Assembly: GCA_043816965.1 (NCBI GenBank)
Contig: JBDRHK010000050.1
Span: forward strand, 1 to 24,622
DNA: 24,622 nucleotides
Direction of reading: 5' to 3'
Origin: Candidatus Iainarchaeum sp.
Lineage (GTDB): Archaea > Iainarchaeota > Iainarchaeia > Iainarchaeales > JAFCCJ01
The notes under the pieces were generated by a model. It worked only from the letters and a program-made list of their open reading frames with translations. It was not told the DNA's origin and searched no databases. Below are positions 15,473-17,959 of this stretch, in pieces; position 1 is the first letter of the stretch, and each line of letters begins with the position of its first letter. Position numbers and translations under genes: made by a program.

Positions 15473-16318
15473 TCAAAAAAGAATAAATTCAAGTATATTT
15501 GGATAAAGGATAACAACAAGAACCCCGGCAAAAACAAAGGGCGCAAATTTCGGGAGGTTCCTGAAAACCGCCACTTCCTTTACTTTCAATTCCATCAGTT
15601 TTTCAATCTCCCCCTTTCCAATAGTCCTCTTTATGCCAAGCCCTGCCTTCGCCACAATCCCTGAATAAATAAACTCAATGGCTGCAATTTCATCTTCCTC
15701 TAACTTTTCCAGTGGAACTGTTTCCAGATAAAATTCTTTTCTGATTCCCCGTTCCAGCGCAAGGCGAATGATGCCAATAACCATTAAAATTCCCATAAAA
15801 ATGACAAAGTTCATTGAAACCCCTAACTGGAGAATAAGGTAGAAATAAACCACAAGAAACACGGCAAGAATCCCGCCCATAATAAAACCGTTTTTGTTGT
15901 AGTTGAAGTCAATCCCCTTTTTTGCATATTTTATAATGTAATATATTGAATTGAACAAAAACGCAAGAATCGTCGCCACAAACAGGACACCGATTACAAA
16001 CGGCATCCCTGCTTCGCCAAGGAAAGGAAACAAAAAGTTGGTTTCGCCGAAAAACGGCATCAGCAACGCAATTCCTGTGAACAGCTTCACATCCCCGCCC
16101 CCAATCTGCCCAAGGAAATAAAGCAAATACCCAAAAGCAAAAACAGCTGCCGCAATTATAAACGCATTCAAATTAAACTCAATCAGGCTGAACAAAATCC
16201 CCAGCGCAATCATCGGATATGTAATGTAATCATTTATCAGGCCTGTTTTAACATCAGTATAGGCGGCAGCCGCAGACCCGATAATGAGGACAAAAACCCT
16301 GAAAATCAGCAATTCCAT
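15473..16318 (-). CDS. Peptidase A24 prepilin peptidase (EppA/PibD-like)
   Basis: Polytopic membrane protein; YTD and GGGDVKL aspartate motifs; C-terminal FAPF. Confidence 0.88.
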   Translation of the reverse strand: MELLIFRVFVLIIGSAAAAYTDVKTGLINDYITYPMIALGILFSLIEFNLNAFIIAAAVFAFGYLLYFLGQIGGGDVKLFTGIALLMPFFGETNFLFPFLGEAGMPFVIGVLFVATILAFLFNSIYYIIKYAKKGIDFNYNKNGFIMGGILAVFLVVYFYLILQLGVSMNFVIFMGILMVIGIIRLALERGIRKEFYLETVPLEKLEEDEIAAIEFIYSGIVAKAGLGIKRTIGKGEIEKLMELKVKEVAVFRNLPKFAPFVFAGVLVVILYPNILEFILF

Positions 16319-16389
16319 GTTATAATTTAATGTTGAATGGTTTTAAACTTAATTAGGTCTTTCTTTTCATAAAAAATTAAAAACCAAAA

Positions 16390-16584
16390 CTATTTATTTC
16401 GCTTTTTTTTCTTTTTCCGCATGCTTTTATTTCTTTCTGCTTGGACTTCTTTCGCAAATCGTCCCAATGCCTTATCTATTCCCTCGCCTTTCTTAACTTC
16501 TACTCCTACCCCTGGCTCAAGTCCCCATTTTCGGGGGTCGTTCCCACTTTTAGTTTTTTTAACCGGGCGTGTGTATTTCGGCAT
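16390..16584 (-). CDS. Small basic protein resembling bacterial ribosomal protein bS21
   Basis: VEVKKGEGIDKALGRFAKEV matches the bS21 N-terminal pattern; Lys-rich C-terminus; TATAAATA (16614-16607) 23 nt upstream of the ATG; T-rich tract after the stop. Confidence 0.6.
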   Translation of the reverse strand: MPKYTRPVKKTKSGNDPRKWGLEPGVGVEVKKGEGIDKALGRFAKEVQAERNKSMRKKKKKRNK

Positions 16585-16615
16585 TAAAAAATAAGAACCA
16601 GACTACTATTTATAC

Positions 16616-17959
16616 CTACCTAATCTTCATCTTCTTTTTCCTTCCGAAACCTTTCATCAGTTTTTCCAGATTCATCCCGCCCTTTTTCTGCATCTTCTCC
16701 AAGTCAATCTTTGCCATCTTTTTAGCCATCTTCTCCATGACCTTGTACTGCTTCAGCAGTTCCCTTACATCTGACTCTTTCTTGCCAGAACCTTTGGCAA
16801 TCCTCTGAATCCTGTTCTTGTTCAGCAGCTCAGGATTTTCCTTTTCCTTATCAGTCATTGACTCCATAATAACCTTAAAGCCATCAAGCTTGCCCTCACC
16901 CAATTCCATCATTTCCTTCGGGACCTGCTGCCCCAAACCGGCCATATCCATTACCTTATCCAAAGGGCCCATCTTCCTTGCGGCCTTCAATTGGTTGTAA
17001 AAAATTTTCAGGTTAAATTCACCTTCCATAAATGCCTCTGCATTCATCTCCTCTGCCTCAATTTCCTTAATCTTCTCCAGCAACCCCTGCAAATCACCAT
17101 AACCCATAATTCTGGAGAGGAATCTCTGTGCGTCAAATACCTCCAAATCAGCAGGCTTTTCCCCAGTCCCAATAAAGATTACCGGTGACCCTGTCTCATT
17201 GCACGCCACCAATGCCCCACCCCCTTTTGCAGAGCCATCCATTCTGGTGAGAATTACCCCATTGACCCCGACAGAATCATGGAATGCCTTTGCCTGCTTT
17301 TTAGCAAGCTGCCCGATATCTGCACCCAAAACCAACCAGGTGTTATCGGGGTTTAATGCCTTCCCGATGACAACAACTTCCTTTTTCAGTTCACTATCCA
17401 GCGCACTTCTCCCTGCAGAATCAACAATAACCAAATCCTTTCCCTTGAATTCCTTCATCCCTGCCTCAACAATCCTTGCCGCATTCTTCTCCTTCTTGTC
17501 CCCATAAAAATCAATTTTTACCTTGTCAGCAAGCTGCTTCAATTGTTCATATGCCGCAGGCCTGAATGCATCTGCCCCGATTAAACCAACCTTCATCCCC
17601 CTGGCCGAATAGTATTTTGCAATCTTAGCTGCGGTTGTGGTTTTTCCGGAACCAAACAATCCGACCAATAAAATTCTTTCAGGCTTTTCAGGGGCCTTTG
17701 CCTCACCGCCCAATTTCTCGGCAAGCAAATCATAAGTGGTTTTAATCACATGCTCCCTGCGGTTTATTCCCTTAGGGAGATCCTGAAATGCGGAATCCTC
17801 AATTTTTTTGCTTATTTCAAGAACCAGTTTAACATCAACATCGCCTGAGATAAGCGCCCGCTGCAATTCCTTAACTGCGGCCTTAACTGTCTCCTTATCA
17901 AGAACGCTGGAATTCCTGATTTTCTCAATTGCTTTCCTTAAATTCTCTCCCAATCCCAT
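16616..17959 (-). CDS. srp54: Signal recognition particle protein SRP54
   Basis: GLFGSGKTT, DAFRPAAYEQL, DSAGR, GSAKGGG; M domain (SMT..E, RIAKGSG). Confidence 0.97.
   Translation of the reverse strand: MGLGENLRKAIEKIRNSSVLDKETVKAAVKELQRALISGDVDVKLVLEISKKIEDSAFQDLPKGINRREHVIKTTYDLLAEKLGGEAKAPEKPERILLVGLFGSGKTTTAAKIAKYYSARGMKVGLIGADAFRPAAYEQLKQLADKVKIDFYGDKKEKNAARIVEAGMKEFKGKDLVIVDSAGRSALDSELKKEVVVIGKALNPDNTWLVLGADIGQLAKKQAKAFHDSVGVNGVILTRMDGSAKGGGALVACNETGSPVIFIGTGEKPADLEVFDAQRFLSRIMGYGDLQGLLEKIKEIEAEEMNAEAFMEGEFNLKIFYNQLKAARKMGPLDKVMDMAGLGQQVPKEMMELGEGKLDGFKVIMESMTDKEKENPELLNKNRIQRIAKGSGKKESDVRELLKQYKVMEKMAKKMAKIDLEKMQKKGGMNLEKLMKGFGRKKKMKIR

What the first reader, a model, noticed from the sequence alone, without database searches (positions are those of the whole stretch)
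16390..16614. bS21-like (bacterial ribosomal protein) small gene in an archaeal genome, next to srp54
Seen: a 64-aa basic ORF with its own TATA box (TATAAATA 23 nt before the ATG, leaderless geometry) and a downstream T-tract, so probably a real gene. Residues 28-47, VEVKKGEGIDKALGRFAKEV, follow the bS21 N-terminal pattern V-x-V-x-x-G/N-E-x-I/L-D/E-x-A-L-x-R-F-x-K/R, then run into a Lys-rich helix (RKKKKKRNK). The central bS21 segment (G.L.E.R.R..YEKP) is missing and a ~25-aa N-terminal extension is added. Established: bS21 is a bacterial, organellar and phage protein that sits by the anti-SD end of 16S rRNA and is not a standard archaeal r-protein. Inference: a horizontally acquired or domesticated bS21 derivative that could modulate SD-dependent initiation in an archaeon mixing SD-led and leaderless genes.
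Basis: partly seen in the sequence, partly recalled or inferred. Interest (0 to 1): 0.8.

Follow-up and report, generated by a model that had tools for sequence, protein, structure and literature searches.

The report
Small archaeal protein with bS21-like core
A real, very basic 64-residue gene beside srp54 belongs to a small, patchily distributed protein family of one DPANN archaeal phylum; its 20-residue core resembles the start of bacterial ribosomal protein bS21, but it lacks the part that anchors bS21 to the ribosome, so a ribosomal role is possible but unproven.

Summary
The ORF is real. It lies on the minus strand (16390-16584, 64 aa) with TATAAATA 22 nt before the ATG and T-tracts after the stop. 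It sits in an archaeal window between srp54 and an A24 prepilin peptidase.

It is not an orphan. Iterated six-frame profile searches found a family of 48-104-aa basic proteins in 16 of 196 genomes of the same order. A profile built without the window ORF finds only that ORF among 29,167 open frames of its genome (E 9.5e-5).

The bS21 likeness is reproducible but short.
- As a single sequence it is below threshold: PF01165 scores 17.6 bits against a cut-off of 27. Unrelated long proteins in sister genomes score as high.
- At profile level the family matches the first 20-38 residues of bS21: hhalign probability 83-91%, none of 200 bS21 shuffles or 13 real decoys close, and the top four PDB hits are bS21 at E 0.017-0.065.
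- The bS21 anchor helix (YEKPS region) is absent, and no bacterial or phage relative was found.
- The gene is accessory, and a same-genus genome carries an unrelated ORF in the same slot.

Verdict: a new lineage-specific small basic, probably RNA-binding, protein with a bS21-type strand-helix. It is not a bS21 orthologue, and an effect on SD use is unsupported.

The parts
16390..16584 (-). CDS of the 64-aa basic protein (stop included). It is 34% Lys+Arg with no Cys. Residues 22-45 form the conserved PG / strand / helix core, and residues 52-64 form a Lys-rich tail.
   Evidence: Searches give the ORF. A leave-one-out family HMM hits only this frame in the genome (E 9.5e-5). An HMM of the ten more distant members also hits only it (E 0.001). 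AF2 with the family alignment gives mean pLDDT 73.6 and a helix at 36-62.
16607..16614 (-). TATA-box-like TATAAATA, 22 nt upstream of the ATG and 1 nt after the srp54 stop. The geometry fits a leaderless transcript.
   Evidence: Read directly. That it functions as a promoter is inferred, not shown.
16365..16389 (-). Oligo-T tracts directly after the stop codon (TTTTGGTTTTTAATTTTTT), a likely archaeal terminator.
   Evidence: Read directly. Terminator function is inferred.
16355..16615 (-). The 261-bp segment (promoter, ORF, terminator) that differs completely from the same-genus genome G001, while both flanks are nearly identical. It marks a replaceable slot between srp54 and the peptidase gene.
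   Evidence: DNA alignment. SRP54 is 95% identical between the two genomes. The G001 ORF is not a family member (hmmsearch 0.1 bits, hhalign prob 0.3%).
16616..17959 (-). srp54, the upstream neighbour (context only).
   Evidence: Pfam SRP54, SRP_SPB and SRP54_N.
15473..16318 (-). A24 prepilin/preflagellin peptidase, the downstream neighbour (context only). In most relatives it follows srp54 directly.
   Evidence: Pfam Peptidase_A24. Synteny.

Best explanation
The ORF is a genuine, independently transcribed gene. It is a shortened member of a fast-evolving family of small (48-104 aa), very basic proteins confined, as far as searched, to one DPANN order/phylum. That phylum includes the record the tools name archaeon GW2011_AR10; I recall it as Iainarchaeota/Diapherotrites, but no call showed this.

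Full-length members have three parts:
- an N-terminal 'MPR..G' helical module;
- a conserved core, PG-x2-V-x-V-x3-E-x-[IVL]-[DN]-x-A-L-x-R-[FLM], which is a strand followed by an amphipathic helix;
- a Lys/Arg tail.
The window copy keeps only the core and the tail.

The core resembles the N-terminal strand-helix of bS21. This may be very remote homology or convergence. The protein is not a bS21 orthologue, because it lacks the C-terminal helix that anchors bS21.

Most likely mechanism (inferred): an intrinsically disordered basic protein that folds on binding structured RNA through the strand-helix and the basic tail. The small ribosomal subunit is the leading candidate target. It would act as a dispensable accessory factor, not a core ribosomal protein.
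For: Gene reality and family.
- BLASTP to the G017 (AR10) 93-aa protein gives 41% identity over 49 residues, pairwise E 8e-8.
- Iterated profile searches of 196 genomes gave 10 (A5, E<=0.05), 16 (A6, E<=0.05, at least one false positive, G185) and 16 (A7, E<=0.01) genomes with a match.
- Hits found with a core-only profile turned out to start with MPRY or MPRKW, like the seeds MPKY and MPRK.
- The leave-one-out HMM finds only this ORF among 29,167 frames (E 9.5e-5).
- Subgroup I against subgroup II gives hhalign probability 94.8%, P 5e-8.

bS21-type core.
- PF01165 and TIGR00030 are the only family hits, and the G017 protein also hits PF01165 (E 0.018).
- The A7 profile against 177,635 PDB sequences gave 28 hits at E<=10, of which 15 are bS21. 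The top four are bS21 at E 0.017-0.065, always aligned to bS21 residues 2-35.
- hhalign of the family against 9 diverse bS21 sequences gives probability 88.3%, P 2.9e-6, 20 columns.
- The two subgroups taken separately give 90.8% and 82.6%, the latter over 38 columns.
- Controls: the reversed profiles score 8.3 and 7.1. None of 200 bS21 column shuffles reaches 20; the maximum is 15.7. Thirteen real decoys score at most 14.9.

Accessory nature.
- 16 of 196 genomes, and 4 of 55 high-quality ones, have a match.
- Genomic contexts vary between lineages.
- The slot is replaced in G001.

Basic, RNA-binder-like character: 34% K+R. AF2 shows one long helix and no globular core.
Against: - Single-sequence evidence is within noise. 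Of 196 genomes searched in six frames with PF01165, 40 had a hit at E<=0.1, none passed the cut-off, and four scored above the window's 17.1 bits. Three of those four lie inside unrelated 312-542-aa frames.
- phmmer of P0001 against PDB found no bS21. The best hit was the KRAS4b tail, at 15.9 bits.
- BLASTP against E. coli bS21 found nothing.
- Only 2 of 13 members hit PF01165.
- hhalign against a narrow gammaproteobacterial bS21 profile gave only 54% and 31%.
- Three of 200 family column shuffles gave scores near 130. Inspection showed 2-8 aligned columns at 0-25% identity, which I read as hhalign artefacts, but they are reported here.
- The ESM Atlas lead to bS21 for P0001 scored 0.81, a level a third of shuffled proteins reach. 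A full-length member gave no bS21 lead.
- Foldseek found nothing at E<=0.001 for either model.
- RNA or ribosome binding has not been shown by anything here.
- Family recruitment was iterative and seeded from this ORF, so profile drift cannot be fully excluded.
Confidence: 0.5

Rival explanations
1. True bS21 derivative. The family would descend from a bacterial or phage rpsU taken up by an ancestor of this archaeal phylum. It would still dock on the 30S platform over the 3' end of 16S rRNA and change how SD-led and leaderless mRNAs are initiated.
For: All the profile-level matches listed above. In subgroup II the alignment runs to bS21 residue 39. Foldseek's six weak matches for the P0001 model include five chains from bacterial ribosome entries of 55-69 residues; name two of them (8fmw_U, 8rd8_NV) as bS21 (E 5-8, not significant). 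eS26 sits at the rRNA 3' end in TACK archaea, and its authors liken it to bS21 (PMC11698992, listing abstract and passages). No eS26 was found in this genome (86% complete), so that site may be free. Accessory bS21 copies are known in phages and bacteria (PMC9723584 passages; PMC9578407 listing abstract).
Against: Passages of PMC9723584 state that the C-terminal helix anchors bS21 to 16S rRNA and that the N-terminal helix only lies over the anti-SD. The window protein has only the N-terminal element. Scores are below both curated cut-offs. No intermediate or donor-like sequence was found. The motif is internal, not N-terminal as in bS21. The platform of archaeal 30S differs from the bacterial one (established knowledge). 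The gene is patchy even within genera.
Confidence: 0.25
2. SRP accessory protein. It would be a replacement for, or a remnant of, SRP19 encoded next to srp54, helping SRP54 bind SRP RNA.
For: It lies directly after srp54 in G000 and G027. In G001 the (unrelated) ORF in the same slot overlaps the srp54 stop codon. SRP19 (PF01922) passed its cut-off in 0 of 41 relatives and 0 of 201 genomes of the phylum, while three archaeal controls rang. By eye, and from recalled SRP19 sequences, I saw a resemblance to the C-terminal half of SRP19.
Against: No SRP19 hit for P0001 or for the family profile in Pfam or PDB at E<=10. The genome's SRP RNA lacks the 40-nt model segment just 5' of helix 8, which I read as helix 6, the main SRP19 site. 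Most family members are not near srp54. SRP19 is dispensable in archaea (PMC6098224 passages).
Confidence: 0.06
3. The ORF encodes nothing with a sequence-specific function. It would be a chance or decaying ORF in a variable intergenic insert, or a generic polycationic peptide.
For: Extreme divergence and patchiness. The window copy is truncated relative to the family. The slot holds an unrelated ORF in G001. One low-depth contig in run X2 carries a 4-nt insertion after 16423 that would shift the tail frame.
Against: The core motif is conserved across families of the order. The frame is intact and has promoter and terminator signals. The family profile hits only this frame.
Confidence: 0.08

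Closest known systems
bS21 (rpsU; Pfam PF01165, TIGR00030)
   Same: Small and strongly basic, folding only on RNA. The strand plus amphipathic helix 'V-x-V-x3-E-x-[IL]-[DE]-x-A-L-x-R-F' matches bS21 residues 2-21 (up to 39 for the longer members), with hhalign probability 83-91%.
   Different: Below both curated cut-offs. No central or C-terminal helix (the YEKPS region with its conserved aromatic residue). The motif is preceded by 25-55 residues instead of opening the protein. The family is archaeal, patchy and fast-evolving.
Accessory bS21 copies: phage-encoded bS21 and bacterial bS21 paralogues
   Same: Non-core, lineage-specific small basic proteins thought to retune ribosomes (PMC9723584 passages; PMC6375957 and PMC9578407 listing abstracts). 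This is the nearest model for how an accessory copy could work.
   Different: Those proteins are full-length and recognisable as PF01165. No relative of this ORF was found in 50,697 phage records or in IMG/VR.
eS26 of TACK/Asgard archaea
   Same: A small basic protein at the 3' end of SSU rRNA, which its authors liken to bS21 (PMC11698992 passages). It would be a functional analogue if this family binds there.
   Different: No sequence relation was tested or seen. eS26 was not found in this genome.
SRP19
   Same: A small Lys-rich archaeal protein functionally tied to SRP54, which is the gene next door.
   Different: No profile match. SRP RNA helix 6 appears to be deleted here.
aS21 (Pyrococcus abyssi 30S)
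   Same: An archaea-specific small SSU protein discovered late.
   Different: aS21 has two zinc knuckles and sits at the eS21 site (PMC7005279 passages). This protein has no Cys.

Membership tests
bS21 (PF01165 / TIGR00030) | Score at or above the curated cut-off of the family model | tested here: not met
   PF01165 scores 17.6 bits against a cut-off of 27, and TIGR00030 scores 13.7 against 28.95. Only 2 of 13 family members hit PF01165 at E<=10.
bS21 (PF01165 / TIGR00030) | N-terminal strand plus first helix motif (V.V...E.[IL][DE].AL.RF[KR]) | tested here: met
   hhalign of the family against 9 bS21 sequences gives probability 88.3%, P 2.9e-6, with bS21 columns 2-21 aligned. The subgroups give 90.8% and 82.6%. 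Controls are clean.
bS21 (PF01165 / TIGR00030) | Second (C-terminal) helix that anchors the protein to 16S rRNA, with the conserved YEKPS-type segment and an aromatic residue | tested here: not met
   Alignments of the window ORF end at bS21 residues 21-33. After F43 the protein has no aromatic residue and runs into a Lys tail. The role of that helix is taken from PMC9723584 passages.
bS21 (PF01165 / TIGR00030) | The motif opens the protein (strand at residues 2-8) | tested here: not met
   The motif starts at residue 26-28 here, and at residues 45-60 in full-length members.
bS21 (PF01165 / TIGR00030) | Physical component of the 30S subunit | not testable with these tools
   No RNA or proteomic data were available. 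The complex prediction with uS11 gave no verdict (see Tried and rejected).
SRP19 (PF01922) | Profile match, and an SRP RNA with helix 6 to bind | tested here: not met
   No PF01922 hit for the ORF or in the genome. The SRP RNA alignment lacks the 40-nt segment 5' of helix 8.
New family: small basic 'MPR' proteins of this DPANN order (defined here) | Core PG-x2-V-x-V-x3-E-x-[IVL]-[DN]-x-A-L-x-R-[FLM] recognised by a profile built without the ORF | tested here: met
   The leave-one-out HMM gives E 9.5e-5 and a unique hit among 29,167 frames. The HMM of the ten distant members gives E 0.001 and a unique hit.
New family: small basic 'MPR' proteins of this DPANN order (defined here) | N-terminal helical module (MPR.G....[IV]KR[IL]A[KR]..G[VI]P) | tested here: not met
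   Absent from the window ORF and from the G027 and G154 copies. Present in 10 of 13 aligned members.

The most novel reading that the evidence does not exclude
A DPANN phylum carries an accessory small-subunit protein descended from, or converged on, bacterial bS21. It would sit over the 3' end of 16S rRNA in the niche that eS26 fills in TACK/Asgard archaea and bS21 fills in bacteria. Strain by strain, it would shift the balance between SD-led and leaderless initiation. The window's truncated, leaderless copy would be a minimal 'anti-SD cap' version.
Probability: 0.15. Interest if true: 0.8.

Novelty: new variant of a known kind. Interest (0 to 1): 0.45.

Why it matters
bS21 is treated as strictly bacterial, organellar and phage-borne (PMC7897474 passage calls it bacterial-specific). 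My three searches found no report of an archaeal bS21-like protein. A family of archaeal proteins sharing its RNA-facing strand-helix would have two possible meanings. It could extend the evolutionary reach of this module. Alternatively, it could show that a 20-residue basic strand-helix is a recurrent solution for binding rRNA. Either way, it gives a concrete candidate for the unknown accessory ribosome or RNA-binding proteins of reduced DPANN genomes. The work also shows how a borderline single-sequence hit can be tested by first building the protein's own family.

Tried and rejected
- **Sequence searches.** The word-index search of 5.8 billion proteins found only the ORF itself. phmmer over 1.84 billion representatives found the ORF itself plus two acidic bacterial repeat proteins (1101 and 737 aa). 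Those match 'DP..W..PG' repeatedly, and I judge them spurious. tblastn against phage records found no match. P0001 in JGI metagenome contigs and in IMG/VR found no relative. The A1 scan of genome contigs found only the AR10 record. The bS21 alignment A3 in IMG/VR returned only E. coli-like copies.
- **PHROGs.** Nothing for three family members.
- **Divergent-SRP19 idea.** Raised from recalled sequences and rejected.
- **Circular-permutation idea.** This proposed that the N-terminal module equals the bS21 C-terminal helix. hhalign gave score 11.2, P 0.067, not significant.
- **G001 ORF as a diverged family member.** Rejected.
- **Structure.** Foldseek against PDB gave no match at E<=0.001 for either model. 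The Atlas's own model of P0001 has pLDDT 0.43.
- **Complex prediction.** uS11 (16-row alignment) with the family (13 rows) gave no verdict, score 0.30 against a mark of 0.32. This is not evidence either way.
- **Expression.** No RNA holder is listed among the 7 runs returned. The contigs of three DNA runs cover the stretch only in pieces.

Full report
**1. What is there**

The ORF lies on the minus strand, 16390..16584 with the stop, and encodes 64 aa: MPKYTRPVKKTKSGNDPRKWGLEPGVGVEVKKGEGIDKALGRFAKEVQAERNKSMRKKKKKRNK. On the coding strand, TATAAATA occupies 16614-16607. That is 1 nt after the srp54 stop codon and 22 nt before the ATG, with no SD-like run between. T-tracts follow the stop.

The window is archaeal. 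It holds eS19, eL39, eL31, aIF6, prefoldin alpha, FtsY, SRP54, a class III signal-peptide protein and an A24 peptidase. The genome is 1.34 Mb in 109 contigs and 86% complete.

**2. Single-sequence tests of the bS21 idea**

- Pfam gives one hit, Ribosomal_S21: E 0.0031, 17.6 bits against a cut-off of 27, residues 28-59 on profile positions 2-33.
- NCBIfam gives only TIGR00030: 13.7 bits against 28.95.
- BLASTP against E. coli bS21 finds nothing.
- phmmer against PDB finds no bS21. The best hit is the polybasic tail region of KRAS4b, at 15.9 bits.

A six-frame PF01165 search of 196 genomes of the order shows what noise looks like. Forty genomes have a hit at E<=0.1, none passes the cut-off, and four hits score above the window's 17.1 bits. 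Three of these four lie inside unrelated frames of 312-542 aa. The fourth, a 39-aa frame in G141, may be a fragment of the family described below.

**3. The ORF has relatives**

Large sequence searches found nothing useful. A six-frame search of relatives found a 93-aa protein in G017, which the tools name archaeon GW2011_AR10, hypothetical protein QT03_C0001G1053. It is 41% identical over 49 residues, pairwise E 8e-8.

I then iterated profile searches over the same 196 genomes.
- A core-only profile (A5) gave 10 genomes at E<=0.05.
- A6 gave 16 genomes at E<=0.05, including at least one false positive, a 200-aa protein in G185.
- A7 (13 members) gave 16 of 196 genomes at E<=0.01, and 4 of 55 among high-quality genomes.

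The core-only profile contained none of the N-termini. Even so, the new hits begin MPRY, MPRKW or MPRKH, like the seeds MPKY and MPRK.

Full-length members are 77-104 aa. They have an N-terminal 'MPR.G' helical module, a linker, the core PG-x2-V-x-V-x3-E-x-[IVL]-[DN]-x-A-L-x-R-[FLM], and a basic tail. AF2 models the N-terminal module at pLDDT 96-97 in the G118 member. The window copy, like those of G027 and G154, lacks the N-terminal module.

Three independence checks support membership.
- An HMM of the other 12 members hits only this frame among 29,167 open frames of G000 (E 9.5e-5).
- An HMM of the ten members that exclude G000, G027 and G017 also hits only it (E 0.001).
- The two subgroups align at hhalign probability 94.8%.

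**4. Profile-level test against bS21**

The family profile was searched against 177,635 PDB sequences.
- With 2 members, KRAS came first and four bS21 chains followed (E 0.08-0.65).
- With 7 members, the top three hits were bS21 (E 0.058-0.4).
- With 13 members, there were 28 hits at E<=10, of which 15 are bS21 from diverse bacteria. The top four are all bS21 (E 0.017-0.065), always aligned to bS21 residues 2-35.

hhalign against a narrow gammaproteobacterial bS21 alignment gave only 54% and 31%. I then assembled nine diverse bS21 sequences from E. coli and from phage-collection records. Against this set the family scores 34.4, probability 88.3%, P 2.9e-6, over 20 columns. Subgroup I alone gives 90.8% over 23 columns. 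Subgroup II alone gives 82.6% over 38 columns, reaching bS21 residue 39.

Controls:
- The reversed profiles score 8.3 and 7.1.
- 200 shuffles of the bS21 columns have mean 8.0, maximum 15.7, and none reaches 20.
- 200 shuffles of the family columns gave three scores near 130. On inspection each has 2-8 aligned columns at 0-25% identity, which I take to be numerical artefacts. None of the other 197 reached a score of 20.
- Twelve real proteins of the window plus a uS11 alignment score at most 14.9 against the family and 14.6 against bS21.

The likeness therefore does not come from composition. It is, however, short, and at database level its significance is only about 0.003-0.07.

**5. What is missing**

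Passages of PMC9723584 state that the N-terminal helix of bS21 lies over the anti-SD, while the C-terminal helix is tucked against 16S rRNA and anchors the protein. A conserved aromatic residue there stacks on A1534. The window protein aligns only to the first element. After F43 it has no aromatic residue and ends in a Lys run.

Other tests add nothing in favour.
- Only 2 of 13 members hit PF01165.
- Foldseek found nothing at E<=0.001. For the full-length G118 model there is no such pattern.
- The ESM Atlas feature search put bS21 clusters first for P0001 at 0.81, a level reached by a third of shuffled proteins. It gave no such lead for a full-length member.

**6. Context and evolution**

I examined 28 srp54 loci.
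- In 15, a peptidase-like ORF of about 270 aa starts within 40 nt of the srp54 end, judged by the printed N-termini and not scanned with Pfam. In one more it starts at 136 nt.
- In 3 (G000, G001, G027), a small basic ORF lies between the two genes.
- The other 9 have other neighbours or end early.

The G027 ORF is a family member. The G001 ORF (91 aa) is not: hmmsearch gives 0.1 bits and hhalign gives 0.3%. This is despite G001 being of the same genus with a 95% identical SRP54 and nearly identical flanks. A 261-bp promoter-ORF-terminator cassette has therefore been exchanged in place.

Elsewhere the family sits in other contexts: after nadC-nadD in one lineage, between cca and the HVO_2753-type zinc finger plus aEF-1beta in another, and in other places again. 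No mobile-element genes were seen beside it. The distribution is patchy even within genera. This is the profile of an accessory gene, not a core ribosomal protein.

**7. The srp54 neighbour**

SRP19 (PF01922) passed its cut-off in 0 of 41 relatives and 0 of 201 genomes of the phylum, while three archaeal controls rang. That made a divergent SRP19 worth considering, and recalled SRP19 sequences looked similar by eye. The tools do not support the idea.
- No SRP19 match appears for the ORF or for the family profiles.
- The genome's SRP RNA (RF01857, 138 bits) lacks the 40-nt model segment just 5' of helix 8, which I read as helix 6, the SRP19 site.
- SRP19 is dispensable in archaea (PMC6098224 passages).

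**8. Mechanism**

Shown:
- The gene is real, and the protein is small and very basic.
- It has a conserved strand-helix core and is accessory.

Inferred:
- It binds structured RNA and folds on binding.
- The 30S platform near the 16S 3' end is the leading candidate target. This rests on the bS21-type element and on the absence of eS26 from this genome. eS26 is reported only in TACK and Asgard archaea, where it contacts the rRNA 3' end (PMC11698992, listing abstract and passages).

I give about 25% to true bS21 descent with ribosome binding. I give about 50% to the more cautious statement: a lineage-specific RNA-binding protein whose relation to bS21 is unresolved and which is not an orthologue.

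**9. Comparison and novelty**

Under bS21, two of four tested defining features fail outright (the cut-off and the anchor helix), and a third (N-terminal position) also fails. I therefore do not file it as bS21. It is best described as a new family carrying a bS21-like module.

My literature searches found no archaeal bS21-like protein. aS21 is an unrelated zinc-knuckle protein (PMC7005279 passages). I did not consult supplements of these papers.

**10. Verdict**

Interest is moderate (0.45): the firm result is a new small-protein family, and the exciting reading remains a minority possibility.

Noticed in passing
G000 contig C107:695-966 (locus L081); whole phylum for SRP19: SRP19 (PF01922) passed its cut-off in 0 of 201 genomes of the phylum, while controls rang in three archaea. 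The SRP RNA of this genome lacks the 40-nt model segment just 5' of helix 8, apparently helix 6. This suggests a bacterial-style SRP19-less SRP in a whole archaeal phylum. Two papers hold both 'SRP19' and 'DPANN'. The one I checked by passages does not report this.
   Followed up: partly
window 16355-16615 versus L036:1220-1501 (G001): Between two same-genus genomes with a 95% identical SRP54, a 261-bp promoter-ORF-terminator cassette is replaced by an unrelated 91-aa basic ORF whose start overlaps the srp54 stop codon. Both flanks are nearly identical.
   Followed up: partly
L030:1405-1716 (G118) and other full-length members: The N-terminal 'MPR.G...KR.A[KR]..G.P' module is predicted as two helices (residues 5-20 and 29-36) at pLDDT 96-97. 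It has no Pfam or Foldseek match, so its fold and role are unknown.
   Followed up: partly
L009 (G141:C77:12376-12465): A 39-aa open frame (…RNGEPIERALRRLQKKKK…) scores 17.8 bits on PF01165 and 12.1 bits on the family HMM. It may be a truncated or frameshifted family member, in a genus where the family occurs.
   Followed up: no
window 16423 and 16452, runs X2 and X3: One low-depth contig of X2 has CAAC inserted after 16423, which would shift the frame of the Lys tail. One X3 contig matches 16325-16452 exactly and then continues with 25 unlike letters. These may be strain variants of the cassette or assembly noise.
   Followed up: no
L114 (Vibrio phage 2.275.O, MG592671.1 32138-32605): The phage bS21 homologue (annotated RpsU3) sits between an IF-3 gene and an L7/L12/ClpS-like gene, forming a small translation cluster in a 349-kb phage.
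   Followed up: no
L028:1906-2337 and 238-1491 (G017): The AR10 family member is flanked by a 144-aa Lys-rich protein with no Pfam family, which looks coiled-coil to me, and by a 418-aa protein with only a weak HTH_23 hit. Both are uncharacterised.
   Followed up: no
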